Shown here one piece after another: positions 27,678-34,227 of a stretch of DNA of 64,000 bases (the first letter of the stretch is position 1; every line of letters starts with the position of its first letter). Made by a program: the position numbers and the translations under genes. The stretch lies in the IMG/VR virus record IMGVR_UViG_3300037067_018912, positions 128,001-192,000 of that record; one strand, given 5' to 3'. Source of the stretch: a virus (Duplodnaviria; Caudoviricetes). The notes beneath the pieces are model-generated. The model made no database searches, was not told the origin of the DNA, and saw only the letters and a program-made list of their open reading frames with translations.

Positions 27678-27710
27678 TAAAAAAACCCGTGAGATTTTTC
27701 TCACGGGTTC
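27678..27710 (-). terminator. Intrinsic terminator of the TROVE-like/ARPP-like operon
   Basis: Minus strand AACCCGUGAGA-AAAA-UCUCACGGGUU followed by UUUUU. Confidence 0.8.
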
Positions 27711-27785: not shown

Positions 27786-28886
27786 TTACATAGCGAACCT
27801 TTGCTGCCTACGAGCCTTGTTCCTGAGTTCATTCACTTCACGGAGTGCGTTCGGATCGAATCTCTCTCTCTTAACCACACTCACGACATGGTTGAACTCA
27901 TTCTCGGTAATGACCTGACCGATGTACCCCTCGGTTTTGAGGATGTACGACTTCGGTGCTTTACTCGCCGAGGAAGGATTTCCTTCCGCATCAAGGGTCG
28001 CATCGAAGGTCAGTTCGAGCAGTTCTTGGATTTTTTCCTGAACGCTCGCTGTCATCTTCTGCTTCGTCCTTTTCAGAGCGGCCTCAAGCAGGTCTACAAT
28101 GTTGTCACGGTAGTCCTTCTTAATTTCCTCGTATGACTGCGAGAAGTTGTTCATCGTGGACTTATTCTTCAATTCGCTGATTATTGCAAGCGAACCGTAG
28201 CAGTCACGGATCATCAAATCCCACACCTGTTCGGCGTATGTGAAGGACGGGAACTTGTCGATTGCGACGATTTCACCGTCGATCAGCACGACTATACCGA
28301 TCAGATTCTTTGGACGTTCAAAGTGTGCAATGAACTGTTCAAGTTTCTTGTCATACTTATCGAAGTAGACATTAAGATACCTTCCTGCACCGGAATTAGT
28401 ATCATGGCCAAGTTTCTCAATCGCCGGATAAATCCTGCCAAGATTATGCGGTTGGCCGACAGTGTCGAAAACCATTTCACGCATTGTTACAGGAAGCATA
28501 CGGAACTCCTGAGTACCCCTGAACGTACCACCCTGCGAACCCTGAACGCAACCTGCGTCATTGAAGGTCACGCTCGACTTTTGAGCCATGTAACCCGCCT
28601 TGGTCATACCGTGGTTCTGCGCCGACTGCTTAGTTATAACAGCCATTTGCGTGGGCACAATAATCTCCTTGTCCTCCTTGTTAGTGAAGCCAATTTGACC
28701 ATAGTTGTTGTTACCCGCAACAAGTGCAGTCATGGGATTTCCAAAACGTTCGTCCATTGAATACTCCTTATCGGTCGTCAAACAGACGATTTGCATGTTC
28801 AAAATCGATTGAACTATGATGTTGCCGTCAGCGTCCTTGACGGGACGGCATCCTTTCAGCAATTCTACGAATTCTCTCGTGTTCAT
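27786..28886 (-). CDS. ARPP/DUF6569-like protein, translationally adjacent to the TROVE-like gene
   Basis: Motifs KQSAQNH...DAGCVQGSQG and GIVVLIDGEIVAIDKF resemble my recollection of the ARPP (DUF6569) family pattern (QNR...CVExxRW; GxxxxIxGxxxxxDxF). Starts 11 bp after the upstream stop. Confidence 0.5.
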   Translation of the reverse strand: MNTREFVELLKGCRPVKDADGNIIVQSILNMQIVCLTTDKEYSMDERFGNPMTALVAGNNNYGQIGFTNKEDKEIIVPTQMAVITKQSAQNHGMTKAGYMAQKSSVTFNDAGCVQGSQGGTFRGTQEFRMLPVTMREMVFDTVGQPHNLGRIYPAIEKLGHDTNSGAGRYLNVYFDKYDKKLEQFIAHFERPKNLIGIVVLIDGEIVAIDKFPSFTYAEQVWDLMIRDCYGSLAIISELKNKSTMNNFSQSYEEIKKDYRDNIVDLLEAALKRTKQKMTASVQEKIQELLELTFDATLDAEGNPSSASKAPKSYILKTEGYIGQVITENEFNHVVSVVKRERFDPNALREVNELRNKARRQQRFAM

Positions 28887-28897
28887 AACCGTAATTA

Positions 28898-30526
28898 TTA
28901 AGCGTTTACACTAATTTTCTTCAACCTCTTGACGGGTGCTGCTTCAAGAACAGCCACCTGATTTTCAAGCCACCTCTTGGTATCGATTTCAAGCAACCTT
29001 GCGTTGATCTGTGGTTGCAGTGCGACCGGGTTGTTTATCGCCATTGTGACGACTCCAGGACCCAACTTCCTCACATTCGCACCCATTTCAGCACTGACTA
29101 TCGGCGAAATTTGGAACACCGGAATGTCCCTGCCGCTTTCAGCCTTCCAAATCGAGATGACCTCGTTGGTCATGCCGTCATAAGCATTTTCATACCCGTC
29201 AGTCAAGATAAACATCGCATCAAACGGCTTCGAAGGATTCTCCTTCTTTAACAATTCGATGAACGAAGTTGCAAGATCGGTGACCTCATCCTTGGTTCTT
29301 ACAACGATGCTTGAATTCGCAGACCTTGCAAGAACTTTCGACGTAAAGTCGGCAATCGCCCTCGGCGTGTTCTTGGATTCTTGCTTGTGACCCGTCATCG
29401 AGTTGCTCTCGTCGAGCACAACACCGATGTTTTGATAGAAGAACCCTGTGATCTTCTTGCTTTCGGCAAGTTTATCAATCGCCACACCGATTTCACGAGT
29501 GAAACCGTTTTCATACCCCGTCTTGTACAGAGCAAGGAAATCGGTTGCCTTTTCGTAATCAACCGTCTTTTCAACACCCAACTTAGCCGTCGACTTCGTC
29601 TGACGGACTTGCTGGTTGACAGACGTCACTTCGGTAGACTTCCTGATCATTGCCTTGGTCGCCTCCCTTTGGAGTTTGGTCGCCCACATAGAATGATACT
29701 GCGGATGCCTTATGTTCGAGATCAAACCCAAAAGAACTTCTTCCGGGACGGTCTTGACACCTGTAATGTCACGCCTTGCCTTTTCGTATTCACTCAACAG
29801 CGGGAATTCGACTGCACCATAATCAACACCATCATTCCTTTTCATAATAAAGAGGAAGAGTTTGAACACCTTTATTGCTTCGATGTTGGTGTATCTCAAG
29901 ATGTGTTCGTTGACAATCTTTGCTTCCTTCTCGGTGCTTATGCCGGAAGGGTACGTCAACTGCTTGCGTGCGATAGTGACCAATATGGAGGCAGTTTTTC
30001 CACCATACACGTGTCTCAACGCCTTGGCAATCTTGTTACGGTACTTCATAGCATAGAATTCAAGGTTGTCCTGACCCCAAATGTACCCAAGCATGATCTT
30101 CCTCGACCTGTCGTTGTTCACCTTTGCATCTTTCAACGCAACGAACAAACGGAGGATATACGGAAGACCGTTCTCACCGAGGTTATTCAGGGCGCAAAGA
30201 ACCGCCTTGTCGCTCAATCCATTGTCGTACCAATCGATCGGGTTGACAATATGGTTCGCACCGCCCCGTAAAGTGTTTTTAAACTCATTGAGCAACACTT
30301 CGGAGATGAATTGACCTGTAGCACCCTTTTGGTTTGCCACGATCAATGGGAGTTCCTTTGAAAGAGTATACATTTTCTTTATCTGATCCTGTACGGCCTT
30401 CAATTGTTCGTCCTTCTTGTGGTAGTAAGTTGCACTACCCTTCGCAGCACTTGCAATAGTCAATCCTTCAATCAACGATTGTCTGATCGTGCCGAGCGTC
30501 TTTTGTGTCAATACCAAATCTTTCAT
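28898..30526 (-). CDS. Divergent TROVE/Ro60 (Rsr)-like protein with C-terminal vWA domain
   Basis: 542 aa, the size of Ro60. Long helical N-terminal region with an early ATYY motif. vWA MIDAS VVLDESNSM (DxSxS) and FILTDGYEN. Adjacent to Y-RNA-like tRNA mimics. Confidence 0.65.
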   Translation of the reverse strand: MKDLVLTQKTLGTIRQSLIEGLTIASAAKGSATYYHKKDEQLKAVQDQIKKMYTLSKELPLIVANQKGATGQFISEVLLNEFKNTLRGGANHIVNPIDWYDNGLSDKAVLCALNNLGENGLPYILRLFVALKDAKVNNDRSRKIMLGYIWGQDNLEFYAMKYRNKIAKALRHVYGGKTASILVTIARKQLTYPSGISTEKEAKIVNEHILRYTNIEAIKVFKLFLFIMKRNDGVDYGAVEFPLLSEYEKARRDITGVKTVPEEVLLGLISNIRHPQYHSMWATKLQREATKAMIRKSTEVTSVNQQVRQTKSTAKLGVEKTVDYEKATDFLALYKTGYENGFTREIGVAIDKLAESKKITGFFYQNIGVVLDESNSMTGHKQESKNTPRAIADFTSKVLARSANSSIVVRTKDEVTDLATSFIELLKKENPSKPFDAMFILTDGYENAYDGMTNEVISIWKAESGRDIPVFQISPIVSAEMGANVRKLGPGVVTMAINNPVALQPQINARLLEIDTKRWLENQVAVLEAAPVKRLKKISVNA

Positions 30527-30618
30527 CGTACAACAATTTTAATTTACAGTTATTCAAAAATCGCATGGTAAACATACGAATATTTTATTTCAATATCAAT
30601 TAAACCCAAAAAATAAAC

Positions 30619-30673
30619 AAAAAAAATGGGCAGATCGACCGACGCATTGCTGCGCCGATTCCCCCACCCATTT
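30619..30673 (-). terminator. Terminator-like hairpin ending the ncRNA array
   Basis: Minus strand AAAUGGGUGG...GCGCAGCAAUGCGU...CUGCCCAU followed by a U8 run, between the RNA array and the TROVE-like gene. Confidence 0.6.
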
Positions 30674-30704
30674 AATTATAGGAATGTTCTTCTCTTCTTC
30701 GATT

Positions 30705-30805
30705 AAGAAGAAGTGCGGTTGTATTGTCCTGTAAGTTTGCGCCCCCTACTCGAAAGCGGGAACGTTTCATGTTTCAATCTACTGAAAACACAGCCAGTTC
30801 TTCCC
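30705..30805 (-). ncRNA. Module RNA 1 (Y-RNA-like stem enclosing a GC-rich UUCG hairpin)
   Basis: 5' GGAAGAAC-UGGCUGUGUU-UUCAGUAG pairs with 3' AAUACAACC-GCAC-UUCUUCUU. The internal hairpin is CGUUCCC-GCU-UUCG-AGU-A-GGGGGCG. Confidence 0.7.
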
Positions 30806-31000
30806 TATTTTTTGTTTTTTGAAAAAATACAGCACTTCTGCCGTTAAAAACCATTCTTGACCATCAAATGTTAGGCGACGTGCCCCGTTTTTTACTAAAA
30901 ACTCTGACGCCGACAACCAAAAAATTCAAGCGGTGGGGTTTGCTTGTTTGACTTAAATTATAAATCCATTCGTTTTACCCATTTACCGCTTTTATAAAAA

Positions 31001-31141
31001 GGGGAACAGTTTGAAAGTAATTTTTGTTGTATTTGCAAGTTTACGAAACTCGTGCCTTAACCAACTTGGCTATTCGTCCAATTTTGGCGGACAAAGATGG
31101 AGTCGAACCATCGTTTTACTGGAATCACTTTCAGTTTTCCC
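31001..31141 (-). ncRNA. Module RNA 2: circularly permuted tRNA-like RNA (YrlA-like order, anticodon CGU)
   Basis: 5'->3': module strand, T-arm GAUGG-UUCGACU-CCAUC, acceptor 3' strand UUUGUCC-G-CCA, linker AAAUU, acceptor 5' strand GGACGAA, UA, D-arm GCCAAGUUGGUUAAGGC, anticodon arm CGAGU-UUCGUAA-ACUUG, module partner strand. Confidence 0.85.
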
Positions 31142-31147
31142 ATTTTG

Positions 31148-31281
31148 AGGGGAGAGCCGGGATCGAACCGACAATCAATTGTTTAATAGACAATTTGCTT
31201 TACCTTTACTGGAAACACCATTAGTTCTCCTGTTGAGGAGCAATGAGATAGTATTTTTCGTTTTTGATTTGCTATCTCCCC
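31148..31281 (-). ncRNA. Module RNA 3: tRNA-like RNA (anticodon AUU) with the module inserted in the D-loop
   Basis: Acceptor GGGGAGA/UCUCCCC, anticodon arm AUUGU-CUAUUAA-ACAAU, T-arm GUCGG-UUCGAUC-CCGGC. A ~65-nt D-loop insert carries AGGAGAAC-UAAUGGUGUU-UCCAGUAA. Confidence 0.8.
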
Positions 31282-31315
31282 TTGTAATCAATAAAAAAAG
31301 AACTCTTAAAAAATC

Positions 31316-31392
31316 AGAAGAAATTTGTTGGTTTTTGTTTTGTAGATATTGAATTTGCCTCTCAATTTACTGAAAAAACCATCAGTTCTTCC
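31316..31392 (-). ncRNA. Module RNA 4: minimal module with a small hairpin cargo
   Basis: GGAAGAAC-UGAUGGUUUU-UUCAGUAA pairs with AAAAACCAACA-AAU-UUCUUCU. The cargo hairpin is AUUGAG-AGGCAAA-UUCAAU. Confidence 0.7.
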
Positions 31393-31493
31393 TCAATGCC
31401 GATATTGAATGTGGTGTCGGCCTAATTCGGCCTCGATCTTACACTGTCTATCATCAGAACCACTAAACCACTCTCATGATCTCAATATACTTG

Positions 31494-31567
31494 TAGCGGG
31501 AGAGGGATTTGAACCCTCGAACTCTTGGTTATGAGCCAAGCGAGATGCCGGACTTCTCCACCCCGCA
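31494..31567 (-). tRNA. tRNA-Met(CAU), initiator-like; CCA not encoded
   Basis: UGCGGGG-UG-GAGA-AGUCCGGCA-UCUC-G-CUUGG-CUCAUAA-CCAAG-AGUUC-GAGGG-UUCAAAU-CCCUC-UCCCGCU-A. It has a 1:72 mismatch and an A11-U24 pair, as in fMet tRNAs. Confidence 0.85.
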
Positions 31568-31641
31568 ATGTGAAACGTTGATTCGGGTTCAACGTTTAAA
31601 ACCTTTACAAATTCCTTACACAAGGTAAAGAACTAAAATTT

Positions 31642-31771
31642 AAAAAGGATAGTTTGTTTGTTGTCTTGTTTTTAACAAAATCGGACTTGAACCGACAACG
31701 TACTGCTCTGAAGGCAATTCCTCTTCCAATTGAGGTATTTGTTTACTGAAACAACACTCAGTTTCCTTTTT
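31642..31771 (-). ncRNA. Module RNA 5: tRNA cloverleaf (anticodon UCA) with the module extending the acceptor stem
   Basis: AAGGAAAC-UGAGUGUUGU-UUCAGUAA, then acceptor AACAAA/UUUGUU, D-arm CCUC-AAUUGGAA-GAGG, anticodon arm AUUGC-CUUCAGA-GCAGU, T-arm GUCGG-UUCAAGU-CCGAU, then partner strand GACAACA...AACUAUCCUUUUU. Confidence 0.8.
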
Positions 31772-31774
31772 TTG

Positions 31775-31907
31775 TGGGGAGAGTCGGATTTGAACCAACA
31801 ATCAATTGTTTTACGGACAATTTGCTTTACCTATTACTGTAAACACTAATAGTTCTCCTGTTAAGGAGTATGAGATAGTATTTTCGTTTTGTTTTTGCTA
31901 TCTCCCC
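31775..31907 (-). ncRNA. Module RNA 6: paralog of RNA 3 with anticodon GUA
   Basis: Same scaffold as 31148-31281. Anticodon loop CCGUAAA, discriminator A. The D-loop insert carries AGGAGAAC-UAUUAGUGUU-UACAGUAA. Confidence 0.8.
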
Positions 31908-31954
31908 ATGTAAAATTCAAAATTTAAAAGAACTCTTTTGTCATTAAGACGATG

Positions 31955-31986
31955 CAAACATAATTCGAATTTTTTAATTCTCCAAA
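31955..31986 (-). promoter_or_regulatory. Bacteroidota-type housekeeping promoter driving the ncRNA array
   Basis: Minus strand TTTG (31986-31983), 20-nt spacer, TATGTTTG (31962-31955). This matches the -33/-7 consensus TTTG-N19-21-TAnnTTTG. Confidence 0.75.
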
Positions 31987-32036
31987 TGTTTTTGCAAAAA
32001 AATTAAAAAAAATTTTATTCAGTCTATTTCGAACAT

Positions 32037-32044
32037 ATAAATAC
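32037..32044 (-). promoter_or_regulatory. GTATTTAT motif (putative phage late promoter) upstream of the ncRNA array
   Basis: The same octamer precedes ~10 other transcription units in the window. Confidence 0.5.
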
Positions 32045-32082
32045 GTGAAAATTTCAAAAAAGACGCAAAAAACTATAAAATT

Positions 32083-34125
32083 TTATAATTTATTTTCTTT
32101 CTTCTTCATAACGTGTTGATTTGCACCCAATTTCGCAAGCATATCACGGACAATCTTACCATTTCCTTCCGGTTCTTCGGAATCCAACGGCAAGTTGTTG
32201 AAATCAAATTCCACAGTATCGGTGTTTTCAAATGGTTTATAGGTGGGTATCATTCCCCCATTTTGTAATTTTACCTCTTCGGTTTTTTCCTTTGGGGGAC
32301 TTGTTTCTGGGGGTTTCACATCCTCAATCCTCACCTCCGGCGGTTCGACAACATCCGGATTGGTGGTATAAGTCTCCCCTGTCCATCCAAACGGATTATC
32401 TAATTCATTCAACACGTCCTTCACCTTGTCGCTTGCCTCTTCAAGCAATGATTTGGTCTGCACCTCGACCACAATATTCTTTTCCACAGGTACGTTCTCA
32501 TCAAACTCAATCAAAGAATCATCTTCCACAGGTTTCTGTACCTTATTCTCATTCATTTGGGCGTACTTTTCTCCCATTCCGGTCACCAAATCTTCATTCG
32601 CCCTTCCTATAGCACGTGATTCAAAATCCTTGATGGTATCACCATCAGTAACATCACTCACCGCTACATGTATTAAATTTATTTTATCGTCAGATAATAA
32701 TCCCGCTTGCCCCTCAATCCTACCCAATGCCTCATCAGTAGCACCTGGTGGCAATTTCCTTGTGTATTTAAGTGGATATCTCTTATCCTCAATAACGATC
32801 ATCATTTTATCGTTATCGAAAATACAGTCACTAAACGTTTGACCATCACGTGCGAACCTCGCCTTAATAATCTTTATTGTTGCAAGATTGGCCTCCTTTT
32901 GATCGTCTGTCTTGGCCACACTCATGAAGAAATGCGCTTTTTGTAATCTTTTAATGCTTCCACCCGTCTGAAACGCCTCAACTATTTCAGCGTTAAGTCC
33001 GCCACGATTTGTTTGAAGTGCCGTCCAGGCAGGAATGTCCATATCAGACGCCATTGCTTCAAACGATTTAATAATCACCAATTCCGCCTCTGTTCTATCA
33101 GGAGTCTTCTTGTGTGAATCGAGACAATCAAGGTAGTCGAGCACCACAATATCAAACTTGAATCCATATTTCTTTTGATGCCTGTTAATCCACGCCCGGA
33201 CATCCATCATGGTGGTGTTTTCCTGACTCATCTTGATAATGACAAGTCTACCCTTACCTTTCATTTTTTCGGCTTGGGCAACGACTATTTCCTTAACTTT
33301 TTTATTTTCCTCATCCATCTTACTCAATGGTACTCCTGACCAAATCGTAAAATGCTTCCTTTGAATTTGTTCAACAGTATCCTCAAATATGATCTGTAAC
33401 ACATTCTTATTGCATTCATATGCAGTATTGGCAATCTTCGTCAATGCGGTCGTCTTTCCAACCCCCGAAGGTGTCAGAATCACCCCAATCTCACCTTTAC
33501 CAAGACCACCACCCGTTAATGTATCAATCACATCAATGCCTGTTGGTATGGTCTGTCTAAATTCCTTTCTCAACACTCTATCGATGTTCTCAAATACTTC
33601 CGTGCCTTCATCCTCTTCAGCACCAATATGTGCAATTTTTAGAAATTTCTCTTCAATTTGGGCGATAACGTGTTTATTCTTTATTTCACCATTTTTCGTT
33701 TTATCAATAATAAATTCACCAGTCTTCCTATATTCTTGTTGTTTAATGAACATATTCGCCGACCTGCGGACAATTTCCCCATCGTGCAACATTTCCTTGT
33801 TCAAAACCCTATCATTCCACAATTCAATTTGTTGAAGTGCAGAGAACACCGATTCCTCCTCAATCTTGTTGTTCGGTGTCTTAAATTCATTGATTGCCTG
33901 TTGGATGCTGCGGTTTTGAAGATTAGGAACTTTACCATATTCCTTAAAGAACTCGTAGATGATGATGAACATCCTCTTCATGATAGGTTCATCAAAATAA
34001 TCGACAGCCAAATTCGGCAGTATTTTCTCTGCGAATTCGGGTTCGACAAGGAGTTGCCACATCATCTTCCGTTGAAAATCCGGACCGAGATACGATGTGA
34101 AAGTATTTTCAACAGTTTCGCTCAT
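32083..34125 (-). CDS. Replicative DnaB-like (T4 gp41-type) helicase with acidic C-terminal extension
   Basis: IPTGIDVIDTLTGGGLGKGEIGVILTPSGVGKT (Walker A), VVLDYLD (Walker B), WTALQTNR and KARFA. The start is more likely the ATG at 34125 (MSETVEN) than 34176. Confidence 0.9.
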   Translation of the reverse strand: MSETVENTFTSYLGPDFQRKMMWQLLVEPEFAEKILPNLAVDYFDEPIMKRMFIIIYEFFKEYGKVPNLQNRSIQQAINEFKTPNNKIEEESVFSALQQIELWNDRVLNKEMLHDGEIVRRSANMFIKQQEYRKTGEFIIDKTKNGEIKNKHVIAQIEEKFLKIAHIGAEEDEGTEVFENIDRVLRKEFRQTIPTGIDVIDTLTGGGLGKGEIGVILTPSGVGKTTALTKIANTAYECNKNVLQIIFEDTVEQIQRKHFTIWSGVPLSKMDEENKKVKEIVVAQAEKMKGKGRLVIIKMSQENTTMMDVRAWINRHQKKYGFKFDIVVLDYLDCLDSHKKTPDRTEAELVIIKSFEAMASDMDIPAWTALQTNRGGLNAEIVEAFQTGGSIKRLQKAHFFMSVAKTDDQKEANLATIKIIKARFARDGQTFSDCIFDNDKMMIVIEDKRYPLKYTRKLPPGATDEALGRIEGQAGLLSDDKINLIHVAVSDVTDGDTIKDFESRAIGRANEDLVTGMGEKYAQMNENKVQKPVEDDSLIEFDENVPVEKNIVVEVQTKSLLEEASDKVKDVLNELDNPFGWTGETYTTNPDVVEPPEVRIEDVKPPETSPPKEKTEEVKLQNGGMIPTYKPFENTDTVEFDFNNLPLDSEEPEGNGKIVRDMLAKLGANQHVMKKKENKL

Positions 34126-34227
34126 ATAAGTGCGTAAAATGAGGGGGCAGTTGCAGAAAACAACTACAAATAGCAACGGTGAACAATTATTGAAACTAAC
34201 TTTGCAACCGCCCTTATGTTATTATTT

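What the first reader, a model, noticed from the sequence alone, without database searches (positions are those of the whole stretch)
30705..31907. Six copies of a fixed-geometry RNA module with covarying stems
Minus-strand 5' arms align with exact spacing: GGAAGAAC-UGGCUGUGUU-UUCAGUAG (30779-30804), GGGAAAAC-UGAAAGUGAU-UCCAGUAA (31116-31141), AGGAGAAC-UAAUGGUGUU-UCCAGUAA (31206-31231), GGAAGAAC-UGAUGGUUUU-UUCAGUAA (31367-31392), AAGGAAAC-UGAGUGUUGU-UUCAGUAA (31743-31768), AGGAGAAC-UAUUAGUGUU-UACAGUAA (31834-31859). The central 10 nt differ between copies, yet each has its own complementary strand: AAUACAACC, AUUACUUUCA, AAAUACUAU, AAAAACCAACA, GACAACA, AAAUACUA. AAC-U and CAGUA are invariant and apparently unpaired. 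This pattern fits a protein-recognised helix-internal loop-helix element.
Basis: seen in the sequence. Interest (0 to 1): 0.85.

Follow-up and report, generated by a model that had tools for sequence, protein, structure and literature searches.

The report
Docking handle on phage Y-like RNAs
Six small RNAs in a 357-kb phage share one stem-bulge-stem "handle" grafted onto tRNA look-alikes and lie just upstream of a divergent Ro60-type RNA-binding ring protein, so they are most likely an undescribed variant of the Ro60/Y-RNA particles known from animals, bacteria and a few phages.

Summary
Six exact copies of RAAC-N12-CAGUA lie on the minus strand at the stated coordinates (0 of 100 shuffles reach the count), and each pairs with its own partner strand.

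In 73 related phage loci the motif recurs 2-8 times, always on the same strand upstream of one gene. The spacing is fixed: 199 distinct contexts at 12 nt, none on the other strand.

Covariation supports two helices:
- a 5-bp helix 1;
- a helix 2 of 7-10 bp, with an invariant G-C/U-A core and a conserved G.U wobble.
AAC and UWCAGUAA stay unpaired.

The handle is attached in three ways: across the ends of a whole tRNA body, across a circularly permuted tRNA or a small hairpin, or as a hairpin inside a tRNA D-loop.

The gene just downstream (542 aa, no Pfam hit) models with high confidence as Ro60 (Z 18.7 over 410 residues) and is followed by an ARPP-1 gene. In a motif-first scan, 39 of 56 arrays precede this gene, 16 are cut by the end of the fetched locus and 1 is spurious. 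Homologues at 27-38% identity keep AAC...CAG handles.

Best reading (0.65): the handle is the docking site for the Ro60-like protein, and the RNAs are Y-RNA-like tRNA mimics. Binding itself is untested.

This is a new variant of a known kind. Earlier notes of this scan describe similar handles beside Ro60-like genes in other phages.

The parts
31775..31907 (-). RNA D1: tRNA-like body (acceptor GGGGAGA/UCUCCCC, anticodon arm, T arm) with the handle inserted as a hairpin in the D-loop. 5' arm 31834-31859, helix-2 partner 31876-31882, helix-1 partner 31864-31868, UAAC loop.
   Evidence: (partial tRNA hit, 21 bits). In class D the acceptor is 100% paired with 6 covarying pairs, helix 2 is 98.4% paired and helix 1 is 99.3% paired.
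31645..31768 (-). RNA C: the handle closes around a whole tRNA body (31672-31744, anticodon UCA). 5' arm 31743-31768, helix-2 partner 31655-31664, loop AACUA, helix-1 partner 31645-31649.
   Evidence: (tRNA, 53 bits). Orthologues carry many different anticodons.
31494..31567 (-). Ordinary initiator-like tRNA-Met without a handle, lying inside the array. Context only, not part of the module.
   Evidence: 56.5 bits.
31316..31392 (-). RNA H: the handle closes around a short hairpin cargo. 5' arm 31367-31392, helix-2 partner 31326-31335, helix-1 partner 31316-31320.
   Evidence: (the minimum-energy fold recovers both helices).
31148..31281 (-). RNA D2: paralogue of D1 with a different anticodon loop. 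5' arm 31206-31231, helix-2 partner 31249-31255, helix-1 partner 31236-31240.
   Evidence: (20.6 bits).
31002..31141 (-). RNA P: the handle closes around a circularly permuted tRNA (T arm, acceptor closed by a GCCAAAAUU loop, D arm, anticodon arm CGU). 5' arm 31116-31141, helix-2 partner 31012-31021, helix-1 partner 31002-31006.
   Evidence: (tRNA 24.8 bits, YrlA 18.3 bits).
30709..30804 (-). RNA X: the handle closes around a G+C-rich hairpin cargo; last RNA before the protein gene. 5' arm 30779-30804, helix-2 partner 30716-30725, helix-1 partner 30709-30713.
   Evidence: An alternative closure is seen.
30625..30672 (-). Long G+C-rich hairpin followed by a run of eight U: likely terminator of the RNA array.
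   Evidence: Read directly. The simple scan did not list it.
28898..30526 (-). 542-aa Ro60-like protein (helical ring 1-356, vWA 360-530 with DxSxS): proposed partner of the handle.
   Evidence: no Pfam hit; D372, S374 and S376 conserved; pLDDT 91.4; top 13 PDB hits are all Ro60; Z 18.7, 410 residues aligned.
27786..28886 (-). 366-aa ARPP-1 protein, 11 nt after the Ro60-like gene. A terminator follows at 27683-27710.
   Evidence: PF20208, 43.4 bits; homologue P0266 fuses the two proteins; same gene pair at 38% identity.

Best explanation
The six elements are one portable RNA 'handle'. It consists of:
- helix 1 (5 bp);
- an internal loop with an invariant AAC on the 5' strand;
- helix 2 (7-10 bp, with an invariant G-C/U-A core and a G.U wobble);
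- an unpaired UWCAGUAA on the 5' strand facing an A/C-rich linker on the 3' strand.

I read it as the docking site for the Ro60-like ring protein encoded immediately downstream. That makes the six RNAs Y-RNA-like molecules: a protein-binding handle plus a variable cargo, mostly tRNA mimics.

AAC and CAGUA lie 12 nt apart, about one helical turn. They would therefore face the same side of helix 2 and could be read together by one protein surface. The stems need only to pair.

The cargo would then be displayed on the ring to tether, sequester or sense a tRNA-binding factor, with the vWA domain and the ARPP-1 protein acting as the effector side.

Shown: the motif, its structure, its fixed geometry, the Ro60 fold of the neighbouring protein, and the genomic coupling of the two. 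Inferred: that they bind each other, and what the particle does.
For: - Motif and chance: six exact copies; with one mismatch allowed, 10 matches against 2.3 expected.
- Recurrence: 2-8 copies upstream of the same gene, on the same strand, in nearly all of 73 related loci. These give 197 distinct 31-mers.
- Geometry: a spacing of exactly 12 nt in 199 distinct contexts, at most 14 at any other spacing, and 0 at that spacing on the reverse strand.
- Structure: covariation in three independent MAFFT alignments. Across 139 distinct haplotypes an RNA's own arms form 13.5 of 15 pairs, against 10.5 for swapped arms (maximum 11.1 in 1000 trials). Helix 1 shows G-C/A-U swaps at every position.
- Partner protein: the AlphaFold model has pLDDT 91.4. 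The top 13 Foldseek hits are all Ro60. VIA-align gives Z 18.7 over 410 residues spanning both domains. The MIDAS DxSxS motif is conserved.
- Coupling, starting from the motif: of 56 arrays found in IMG/VR by the motif alone, 39 are followed by the Ro60-like gene on the same strand, 16 are cut by the end of the fetched locus and 1 is spurious.
- Coupling at depth: homologues at 38, 31, 30 and 27% identity also have AAC...CAG handles on tRNA-like RNAs upstream.
- Precedent: Y RNAs lie beside Ro60 genes, carry a stem-bulge-stem binding site formed by their ends and conserved mainly on the 5' strand, and often mimic circularly permuted tRNAs (PMC4201824; 10.1101/312249). A phage Ro60 binds two such RNAs encoded upstream of its gene (PMC12135203).
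- RNA P has the YrlA topology, with its acceptor closed by a loop.
Against: - No binding experiment exists, and no RNA-seq run holding this DNA was found, so neither expression nor RNA ends are known.
- The handle lacks the CGAA / GNCGAAN0-1G motif of known bacterial and phage Y RNAs, and the RNAs do not reach the Rfam YrlA threshold (18.3 against 69 bits).
- The protein is not recognised by the Pfam TROVE model. Its Ro60 assignment rests on a predicted fold.
- Co-location would equally fit binding by ARPP-1 or by a host factor.
- In one distant lineage (L083) two of three RNAs carry a different 5' word.
Confidence: 0.65

Rival explanations
1. The handle is a docking site, but for a protein other than the Ro60-like ring: ARPP-1, another phage protein or a host RNA-binding factor. 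The Ro60-like protein would then act on other RNAs.
For: ARPP-1 is as tightly linked to the array as the Ro60-like gene and is fused to it in one homologue. The handle does not carry the CGAA word of known Ro60 sites (PMC4201824, PMC12135203).
Against: ARPP-1 has no known RNA-binding activity; it is proposed to act on ribose or ADP-ribose moieties (PMC9503650). Ro60 proteins have a documented habit of binding stem-bulge-stem RNAs encoded next to them. At least one distant locus keeps the Ro60-like gene beside handle-bearing RNAs with no ARPP gene inside the fetched stretch (L085), although that stretch ends about 100 nt after the gene.
Confidence: 0.12
2. The handle is an RNA processing or stability element. 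Paired leader-trailer stems would mark cleavage sites, for example for RNase III or RNase E, that cut the array into single RNAs or protect their ends, with no dedicated protein partner.
For: In four of the six RNAs the handle joins the 5' and 3' flanks. U-rich tracts follow helix 1. The array looks polycistronic, with few terminator-like sites.
Against: - Invariant unpaired AAC and CAGUA at an exact 12-nt spacing are not needed for double-strand-specific nucleases.
- The same handle also occurs as an internal hairpin inside a D-loop, where it cannot be a leader-trailer stem.
- The strict coupling to one protein family across 27-90% identity would be left unexplained.
Confidence: 0.1
3. The handle is a cut-and-rejoin signal. 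It would bring the two halves of interrupted (D-loop insert) or circularly permuted tRNA genes together for excision and ligation, giving functional tRNAs, as the bulge-helix-bulge motif does in archaea and some algae.
For: The handle always sits so that CAGUAA directly precedes a tRNA segment and the partner strand follows one. The phage encodes an RtcB ligase. YrlA authors raised the same possibility for permuted-tRNA-like Y RNAs (10.1101/312249).
Against: - No tRNA splicing endonuclease is found in the phage.
- Two cargo classes are not tRNAs at all.
- In class P the acceptor is closed by loops of 4-25 nt, and several lack CCA.
- Removing the D-class insert would leave a D stem of only two Watson-Crick pairs.
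- Orthologous bodies carry many different anticodons, which is unlike decoding tRNAs.
- The whole tRNA in RNA C needs no splicing.
Confidence: 0.07
4. The handle is a small self-cleaving ribozyme, or a pair of them, that releases the cargos.
For: It has a compact conserved core with unpaired invariant nucleotides beside helices. RtcB is present and could rejoin ribozyme-type ends.
Against: No known ribozyme family matches at E up to 10. The conserved core of about 12 positions is small. The D-loop-inserted and terminal forms share no obvious common cleavage product. Coupling to a Ro60-like gene has no ribozyme rationale.
Confidence: 0.03
5. The repeats act as double-stranded DNA sites, such as operators or recombination sites, rather than as RNA.
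For: The copies are repeated and have fixed spacing.
Against: The copies are strictly on one strand (199 against 0 at the 12-nt spacing). Distant partner strands covary. A G.U wobble is conserved in 75 of 139 haplotypes, which only makes sense in RNA.
Confidence: 0.01

Closest known systems
Bacterial and phage Y RNAs of the YrlA type with Ro60/Rsr (Chen et al. 2014, PMC4201824; Rfam RF02553; structure 10.1101/312249)
   Same: The RNAs are encoded next to a Ro60-type gene, often in several copies. They are modular, with a stem-bulge-stem handle conserved mainly on the 5' strand plus a tRNA-like domain. RNA P has the same circularly permuted layout as YrlA, with its acceptor closed by a loop.
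   Different: - The handle word is AAC...GU...CAGUA, not GNCGAAN0-1G.
- The anticodon arm is kept, whereas YrlA lacks its loop.
- The handle is also found across the acceptor ends of a complete tRNA body and inside a D-loop.
- Cargos include non-tRNA hairpins.
- Rfam score is 18.3 against the 69-bit threshold.
- The protein is too divergent for the Pfam TROVE model and is paired with ARPP-1 rather than RtcB or PNPase.
Thermus phage phiLo Ro60 with Yrl1/Yrl2 (PMC12135203; PDB 9KOP, 9L5Y)
   Same: It is a phage-encoded Ro60 with partner RNAs directly upstream of its gene. Binding there goes through a stem-bulge-stem, and helices alpha8-alpha10 contact the RNA. The nearly invariant residues R140, Y162, K165 and H172 of the present family fall in the 8th to 10th helices of the model. 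This is suggestive only.
   Different: The phiLo RNAs use the CGAA bulge and are simple hairpins without tRNA bodies. The fold match is weaker (Z 14.9).
Ro60-like gp130 of Felix O1-type phage Bas63 (10.1101/2024.10.10.617714)
   Same: It is a Ro60-like protein recognised only by structure and located beside a tRNA gene array. The authors suggest that some of the 'tRNAs' are Y RNAs. It gives a functional precedent: gp130 counters the ppl defence system.
   Different: No homologue of the present protein was found by tblastn in cultured phages; the single hit is an uncultured 462-kb phage at 27% identity. The Bas63 RNAs have not been described.
Circularly permuted and intron-bearing tRNA genes of archaea and algae (bulge-helix-bulge processing; cited in 10.1101/312249)
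   Same: Leader and trailer pair next to a permuted tRNA, and an insert lies at a non-canonical position (the D-loop).
   Different: There is no 3-4-3 bulge-helix-bulge, and no splicing endonuclease in the phage. The handle also encloses intact tRNA bodies and non-tRNA hairpins.
Class I RNAs of dictyostelid amoebae (PMC7919456)
   Same: A short terminal stem is followed on the 5' strand by an unpaired conserved word. The paper gives near-invariant U, C, C, A, A at positions 3, 6, 9, 10 and 11. The word here (UUACAGUAA) fits four of those five positions if aligned with the published motif as I recall it.
   Different: Position 9 is U here, not C. There is no AAC bulge or second helix in Class I RNAs. 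The known partner there is an RRM protein. The resemblance covers about 9 nt and may be chance. The alignment rests on my memory of the motif, not on a tool result.

Membership tests
Y RNA / YrlA (Rfam RF02553) | Encoded within a few kb of a Ro60/Rsr gene | tested here: met
   The array ends about 180 nt upstream of a protein with the Ro60 fold. Of 56 motif arrays, 39 are followed by that gene and 16 are truncated.
Y RNA / YrlA (Rfam RF02553) | A stem with a bulge or internal loop that carries the protein-binding site, conserved mainly on the 5' strand | tested here: met
   Two covarying helices flank the AAC loop. The invariant positions lie on the 5' strand. In RNAs D1 and D2 the stem is an internal hairpin rather than the RNA ends.
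Y RNA / YrlA (Rfam RF02553) | Conserved GNCGAAN0-1G / CGAA word in the binding stem (PMC4201824, PMC12135203) | tested here: not met
   The consensus is RRRAR-AAC-U-N4-GUKUU-UW-CAGUA. No CGAA is conserved.
Y RNA / YrlA (Rfam RF02553) | Score at or above the family's gathering threshold | tested here: not met
   The best YrlA match scores 18.3 bits against a threshold of 69 and covers only the tRNA-like core of RNA P. Nothing appears at gathering level.
Y RNA / YrlA (Rfam RF02553) | tRNA-like effector domain with T arm, loop-closed acceptor and D arm | tested here: met
   In class P all four tRNA helices are 98.6-100% paired with many double changes, and the acceptor is closed by a 4-25 nt loop.
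Y RNA / YrlA (Rfam RF02553) | Physical binding to Ro60 | not testable with these tools
   The complex predictor takes no RNA chains, and no RNA-seq or pull-down data are available.
Ro60 / TROVE proteins | HEAT-repeat ring followed by a vWA domain with a MIDAS motif | tested here: met
   The model has pLDDT 91.4. Z is 18.7 with 410 residues aligned to Xenopus Ro60 across both domains. D372-x-S374-x-S376 is conserved.
Ro60 / TROVE proteins | Match to the Pfam TROVE model | tested here: not met
   There is no Pfam family at E up to 0.1 for the window protein. Ten remote homologues gave no TROVE match at E up to 0.01, only weak vWA hits.
Permuted or split tRNA genes processed at a bulge-helix-bulge | 3-nt bulges separated by a 4-bp helix, and a splicing endonuclease | tested here: not met
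   The loop is AAC opposite 2-9 nt, next to a 7-10 bp helix. PF01974 is absent from the complete phage genome. The host is unknown and was not tested.
Known self-cleaving ribozymes (Rfam) | Match to any ribozyme covariance model | tested here: not met
   No ribozyme family matches at E up to 10 in 30500-32100.

The most novel reading that the evidence does not exclude
The handle is not only a docking site. It would guide a protein-assisted cut-and-rejoin reaction (Ro60-like ring plus the phage RtcB ligase) that converts D-loop-interrupted and circularly permuted tRNA genes into working tRNAs with rapidly changing anticodons. That would be the first such tRNA gene architecture and maturation pathway in the bacterial/phage world.
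Probability: 0.06. Interest if true: 0.9.

Novelty: new variant of a known kind. Interest (0 to 1): 0.65.

Why it matters
Ro60/Y-RNA particles are conserved from bacteria to humans, yet how Ro60 recognises its RNAs outside animals, and what the tRNA-like halves of bacterial Y RNAs do, remain open questions.

This family offers about 200 natural sequence variants of one handle with a fixed geometry. The handle is attached to tRNA bodies at three different positions and is tied to a Ro60-like protein that sequence models miss. That makes a ready-made mutational map for binding studies.

It is also a portable RNA tag for a ring protein. It shows that many 'odd tRNAs' in large phages are probably not decoding tRNAs.

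The hypervariable anticodon loops on otherwise conserved bodies hint at an arms-race role, for example as baits or decoys for host enzymes that attack anticodon loops. A published result that another phage Ro60-like protein counters a defence system points the same way (10.1101/2024.10.10.617714).

Tried and rejected
- My first pattern had the wrong spacing (10 N) and found none of the copies. It was corrected.
- A naive search for the best complementary partner, with G-U allowed, did not separate real arms from swapped arms in this A/U-rich DNA. RNAduplex energies separated them only modestly (-12.6 against -10.8 kcal/mol, 79% of cases). I therefore relied on class-wise MAFFT alignments instead.
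- Rfam at gathering and at E up to 10 gave only tRNA hits and sub-threshold noise.
- blastn of the array against GenBank phages matched only the tRNA-Met.
- PHROGs and Pfam gave nothing for the 542-aa protein. A profile search of PDB sequences gave only a marginal vWA hit.
- Sequencing runs: no RNA holder was listed.
- A loop E / sarcin-ricin reading of CAGUA opposite GAA was considered and dropped. A GAA on the opposite strand is present only in some class D RNAs.
- A local ACUG/CAGU hairpin was considered and dropped. It needs UG at the first two helix-2 positions, and G at the second is present in only about half of the copies.
- Hammerhead and hairpin-ribozyme likenesses recalled from memory were not borne out by Rfam.
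- About half of the single hits in the motif-first scan have no Ro60-like gene nearby. By my own rough estimate (the pattern's 16 fixed bases against an assumed size of the collection), roughly that many chance hits would be expected. Only arrays of three or more copies were therefore used for the coupling test.
- Complex prediction was not used, because it takes no RNA.
Full report
**Setting.** The window is bases 128001-192000 of a complete 357-kb phage genome with direct terminal repeats. All long reading frames lie on the minus strand. The finding lies in a 1.3-kb non-coding stretch between a DnaB-like helicase gene (32083-34176) and a two-gene operon (28898-30526 and 27786-28886). ARAGORN and Rfam see only two ordinary tRNAs there: tRNA-Met at 31494-31567, and a tRNA with anticodon UCA at 31672-31744.

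**The observation.** RAAC-U-N9-U-N-CAGUA matches six times without mismatch, all in this stretch and on this strand. With one mismatch allowed the window gives 10 matches against 2.3 expected, and no shuffle out of 100 reaches 10. The rest of the genome has one more match, on the other strand.

**The common layout.**
- Helix 1 is 5 bp.
- An internal loop follows, with AAC on the 5' strand and 2-9 nt on the 3' strand.
- Helix 2 comes next.
- Beyond helix 2, an unpaired UWCAGUAA on the 5' strand faces an A/C-rich linker of about 10-15 nt on the 3' strand.
- The cargo lies beyond that.

**What the handle is attached to.**
- In RNA C it closes around a complete tRNA body.
- In RNA P it closes around a circularly permuted tRNA: T arm, acceptor closed by a loop containing CCA, D arm, anticodon arm.
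- In RNAs H and X it closes around small hairpins.
- In RNAs D1 and D2 it is an internal hairpin inserted in the D-loop of a tRNA-like body whose own ends form a normal acceptor stem.
- The orientation is always the same. CAGUAA leads into the cargo, and the cargo's 3' side leads through the A/C-rich linker into the partner strand of helix 2.

**Relatives.**
- The 542-aa protein downstream has hundreds of close homologues on contigs of 300-360 kb.
- Fetching 73 loci through this protein showed the motif 2-8 times upstream of the gene in nearly all, almost never on the other strand.
- This gave 197 distinct 31-mers. G and U in the middle of the 10-mer, and the U two bases before CAGUA, are also nearly invariant.
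- The RAAC-to-CAGUA spacing is 12 nt in 199 distinct contexts, at most 14 at any other spacing from 6 to 19, and 0 at 12 on the reverse strand. The 'fixed geometry' is therefore a property of the family, not of six paralogues.
- The RNAs fall into orthologous classes by cargo: P, C, D, H and X.

**Structure.** All alignments were made by MAFFT, without reference to pairing.

| Class | Overall pairing and covariation | Handle helices |
|---|---|---|
| P (44 sequences) | 97.0% of cells paired; 23 of 35 pairs change on both sides; 0 of 500 shuffles; slid controls 39-56% | helix 2: 91% paired, four covarying pairs |
| D (36 sequences) | 97.2% of cells paired; 16 pairs change on both sides | helix 1: 99.3% paired, 3 of 4 pairs covary; helix 2: 98.4% paired |
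| X (39 sequences) | 91.7% of cells paired | helix 2: 85% paired, five covarying pairs |

Pooling 139 distinct handle haplotypes from all five classes:
- Helix 1 is 92-100% paired at every position, with G-C and A-U interchanging.
- Helix 2 positions 4-10 are 86-100% paired; positions 1-3 only 63-69%.
- Position 8 is G.U in 75 haplotypes and U-A in 42.
- An RNA's own arms form 13.5 of 15 pairs, against 10.5 when arms are swapped between RNAs (maximum 11.1 in 1000 permutations).
- The wobble and the strand bias exclude a DNA-level reading.

AAC and CAGUA have no conserved partner. A local ACUG/CAGU hairpin is possible in only about half of the copies.

**The neighbouring protein.**
- The 542-aa protein has no Pfam or PHROG match.
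- An exhaustive search found 322 relatives. These are mostly 500-550 aa with weak vWA signals. One is fused to ARPP-1.
- An alignment of 74 of them conserves a DxSxS MIDAS motif and gave a confident model: pLDDT 91.4, a helical domain at 1-356 and an alpha/beta domain at 360-530.
- Against the PDB, the 13 best Foldseek hits are all Ro60. They include frog and human Ro60, Deinococcus Rsr and the Ro60 of Thermus phage phiLo.
- VIA-align gives Z 18.7 with 410 residues aligned across both domains. The next unrelated folds match only the vWA part, at Z about 10.
- The protein is therefore a divergent Ro60-like ring. This lead came from an earlier first-stage note and was tested here.

**Coupling of handle and protein.**
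- Starting from the RNA: a scan of IMG/VR for a strict form of the motif gave 113 stretches. Among the 109 new loci it brought in, single hits without the gene are about as many as I would expect by chance; that expectation is my own rough estimate, not a tool result. There were 56 arrays of three or more copies. Of these, 39 are followed within 3 kb by the Ro60-like gene on the same strand, 16 run into the end of the fetched locus and 1 is a spurious cluster inside the gene itself.
- Starting from distant proteins: loci of homologues at 38, 31 and 30% identity, and an uncultured 462-kb phage at 27%, carry tRNA-like RNAs upstream with AAC, 12-13 nt, then CAG.
- One of these distant loci has the handle inside the variable region of a tRNA that is not permuted.
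- In one lineage (L083) two of the three RNAs have a changed 5' word, as expected if handle and protein drift together. I did not test co-evolution formally.

**Interpretation.**
- Ro60 proteins bind Y RNAs through a stem-bulge-stem formed near the RNA ends and conserved mainly on the 5' strand.
- The genes for these RNAs lie next to the Ro60 gene, often in several copies.
- The other half of bacterial Y RNAs is a tRNA mimic with a loop-closed acceptor (PMC4201824; 10.1101/312249).
- A phage Ro60 binds two RNAs encoded just upstream of its gene through a CGAA bulge (PMC12135203).

The present locus matches this logic point by point, so I read the handle as the Ro60-like docking site (confidence 0.65). 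It is not a member of the described YrlA family. The CGAA word is absent, the Rfam score is far below threshold, the anticodon arm is retained, and the handle is used at three or four attachment points.

What the particle does is inference. The cargos look like displayed tRNA mimics rather than decoding tRNAs:
- Acceptor ends are closed or A/U-rich and lack CCA.
- The D-class D stem has only two Watson-Crick pairs.
- Orthologous bodies carry many different anticodon triplets: 24 different 7-nt loops in 44 class P RNAs.

The vWA domain and the tightly linked ARPP-1, which is fused in P0266, are the likely effector side. ARPP is proposed to act on ribose or ADP-ribose moieties (PMC9503650). Another phage Ro60-like protein counters a host defence system (10.1101/2024.10.10.617714).

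**Rivals.**
- A cut-and-rejoin (permuted or intron tRNA) signal cannot be excluded, because the phage encodes RtcB. It is made unlikely by the non-tRNA cargos, the intact tRNA cargo, the absence of a splicing endonuclease and the variable acceptor loops.
- A plain nuclease-processing stem does not explain the invariant unpaired words, the exact spacing, the D-loop form or the coupling to one protein family.
- No known ribozyme matches.
- Binding by ARPP-1 or a host factor instead of the ring remains the most serious alternative.

**Novelty.** I found no paper or Rfam family describing this handle or this Ro60-like/ARPP-1 family. The kind of system (Ro60 with adjacent Y-like tRNA mimics, including in phages) is known, so I class it as a new variant of a known kind.

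Earlier notes of this scan are unchecked AI notes:
- Some describe the same gene pair with RNA arrays in other genomes.
- Others describe a similar 'closing stem plus unpaired ACAGCAA' handle beside Ro60-like genes in other phages, with a likeness to Dictyostelium Class I RNAs.
- The word here, ACAGUAA, differs by one base. The Class I paper's near-invariant positions fit four of five (PMC7919456).
- I treat this as a lead, not as evidence.

Noticed in passing
window 31002-31141, 31645-31768, 31148-31281, 31775-31907 (-); alignments A2, A3: The anticodon loops of the tRNA-like cargos are hypervariable among otherwise conserved orthologous RNAs. Class P has 24 distinct 7-nt loops and 15 triplets in 44 sequences. 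Class C has UCA, UGA, GUC, UAA, UCU, UUA and others on one body. This suggests diversifying selection on a bait or decoy loop rather than decoding.
   Followed up: partly
window 30640-30804 (-); class X in L008-L080: In the last RNA before the Ro60-like gene, the 5' arm including AAC (RGAAGAAC) is also complementary to GUUWUUCY about 25-30 nt beyond the helix-1 partner. In 34 of 40 cases at least 7 of 8 bases pair, with a G-C to A-U swap at position 1; a reversed-arm control gives 18 of 44. The window copy itself pairs only partly. The helix-1 partner also overlaps a covarying local hairpin (CUUCUC/GAGAAG). This is a possible alternative fold and autoregulatory switch next to the terminator.
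   Followed up: partly
window 31245-31281 and 31872-31907 (-); alignment A3: In the D-loop-insert RNAs the acceptor 5' strand plus UAG (GAGAUAG) can pair with CUAUCUC inside the insert. This excludes both the acceptor stem and part of helix 2. The pairing is 88.5% kept with 3 covarying pairs, weaker than the cloverleaf (100%).
   Followed up: partly
window 31926-31934, 31626-31634, 31296-31304 (-): An AGTTCTTTW box lies 23-67 nt upstream of the starts of RNA D1, tRNA-Met and RNA D2. There are 11 copies in the window against 2.7 expected, and similar boxes precede RNAs in relatives. It is a candidate phage promoter or processing box.
   Followed up: no
window 30829-31000 and 31400-31490 (-): Two structured non-coding stretches inside the array have no handle. 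The first has a long hairpin (AAGCGGU...ACCGCUU) and a terminator-like site at 30829-30844, and its start is conserved after class P RNAs in relatives. Their function is unknown.
   Followed up: no
G000:C1:348880-349941 (-), outside the window: The phage encodes an RtcB RNA ligase about 190 kb from the array. No Rnl2-type ligase and no tRNA splicing endonuclease were found. RtcB is the usual operon partner of Rsr/YrlA in Salmonella.
   Followed up: partly
relatives L011, L037, L038, L039, L053, L073 (upstream regions): Another conserved small hairpin RNA without the handle (UUCCCGGUUGUCCCUGUGGCAACACAAACUUCCGGGUA) recurs between handle RNAs in several related phages. I did not see it in this window.
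   Followed up: no
L085 (ENA contig, 30% identical Ro60-like gene): Handle-bearing RNAs and the Ro60-like gene sit next to an Omp85 gene and other cellular-looking genes. The system may therefore also occur in bacterial chromosomes or prophages.
   Followed up: no
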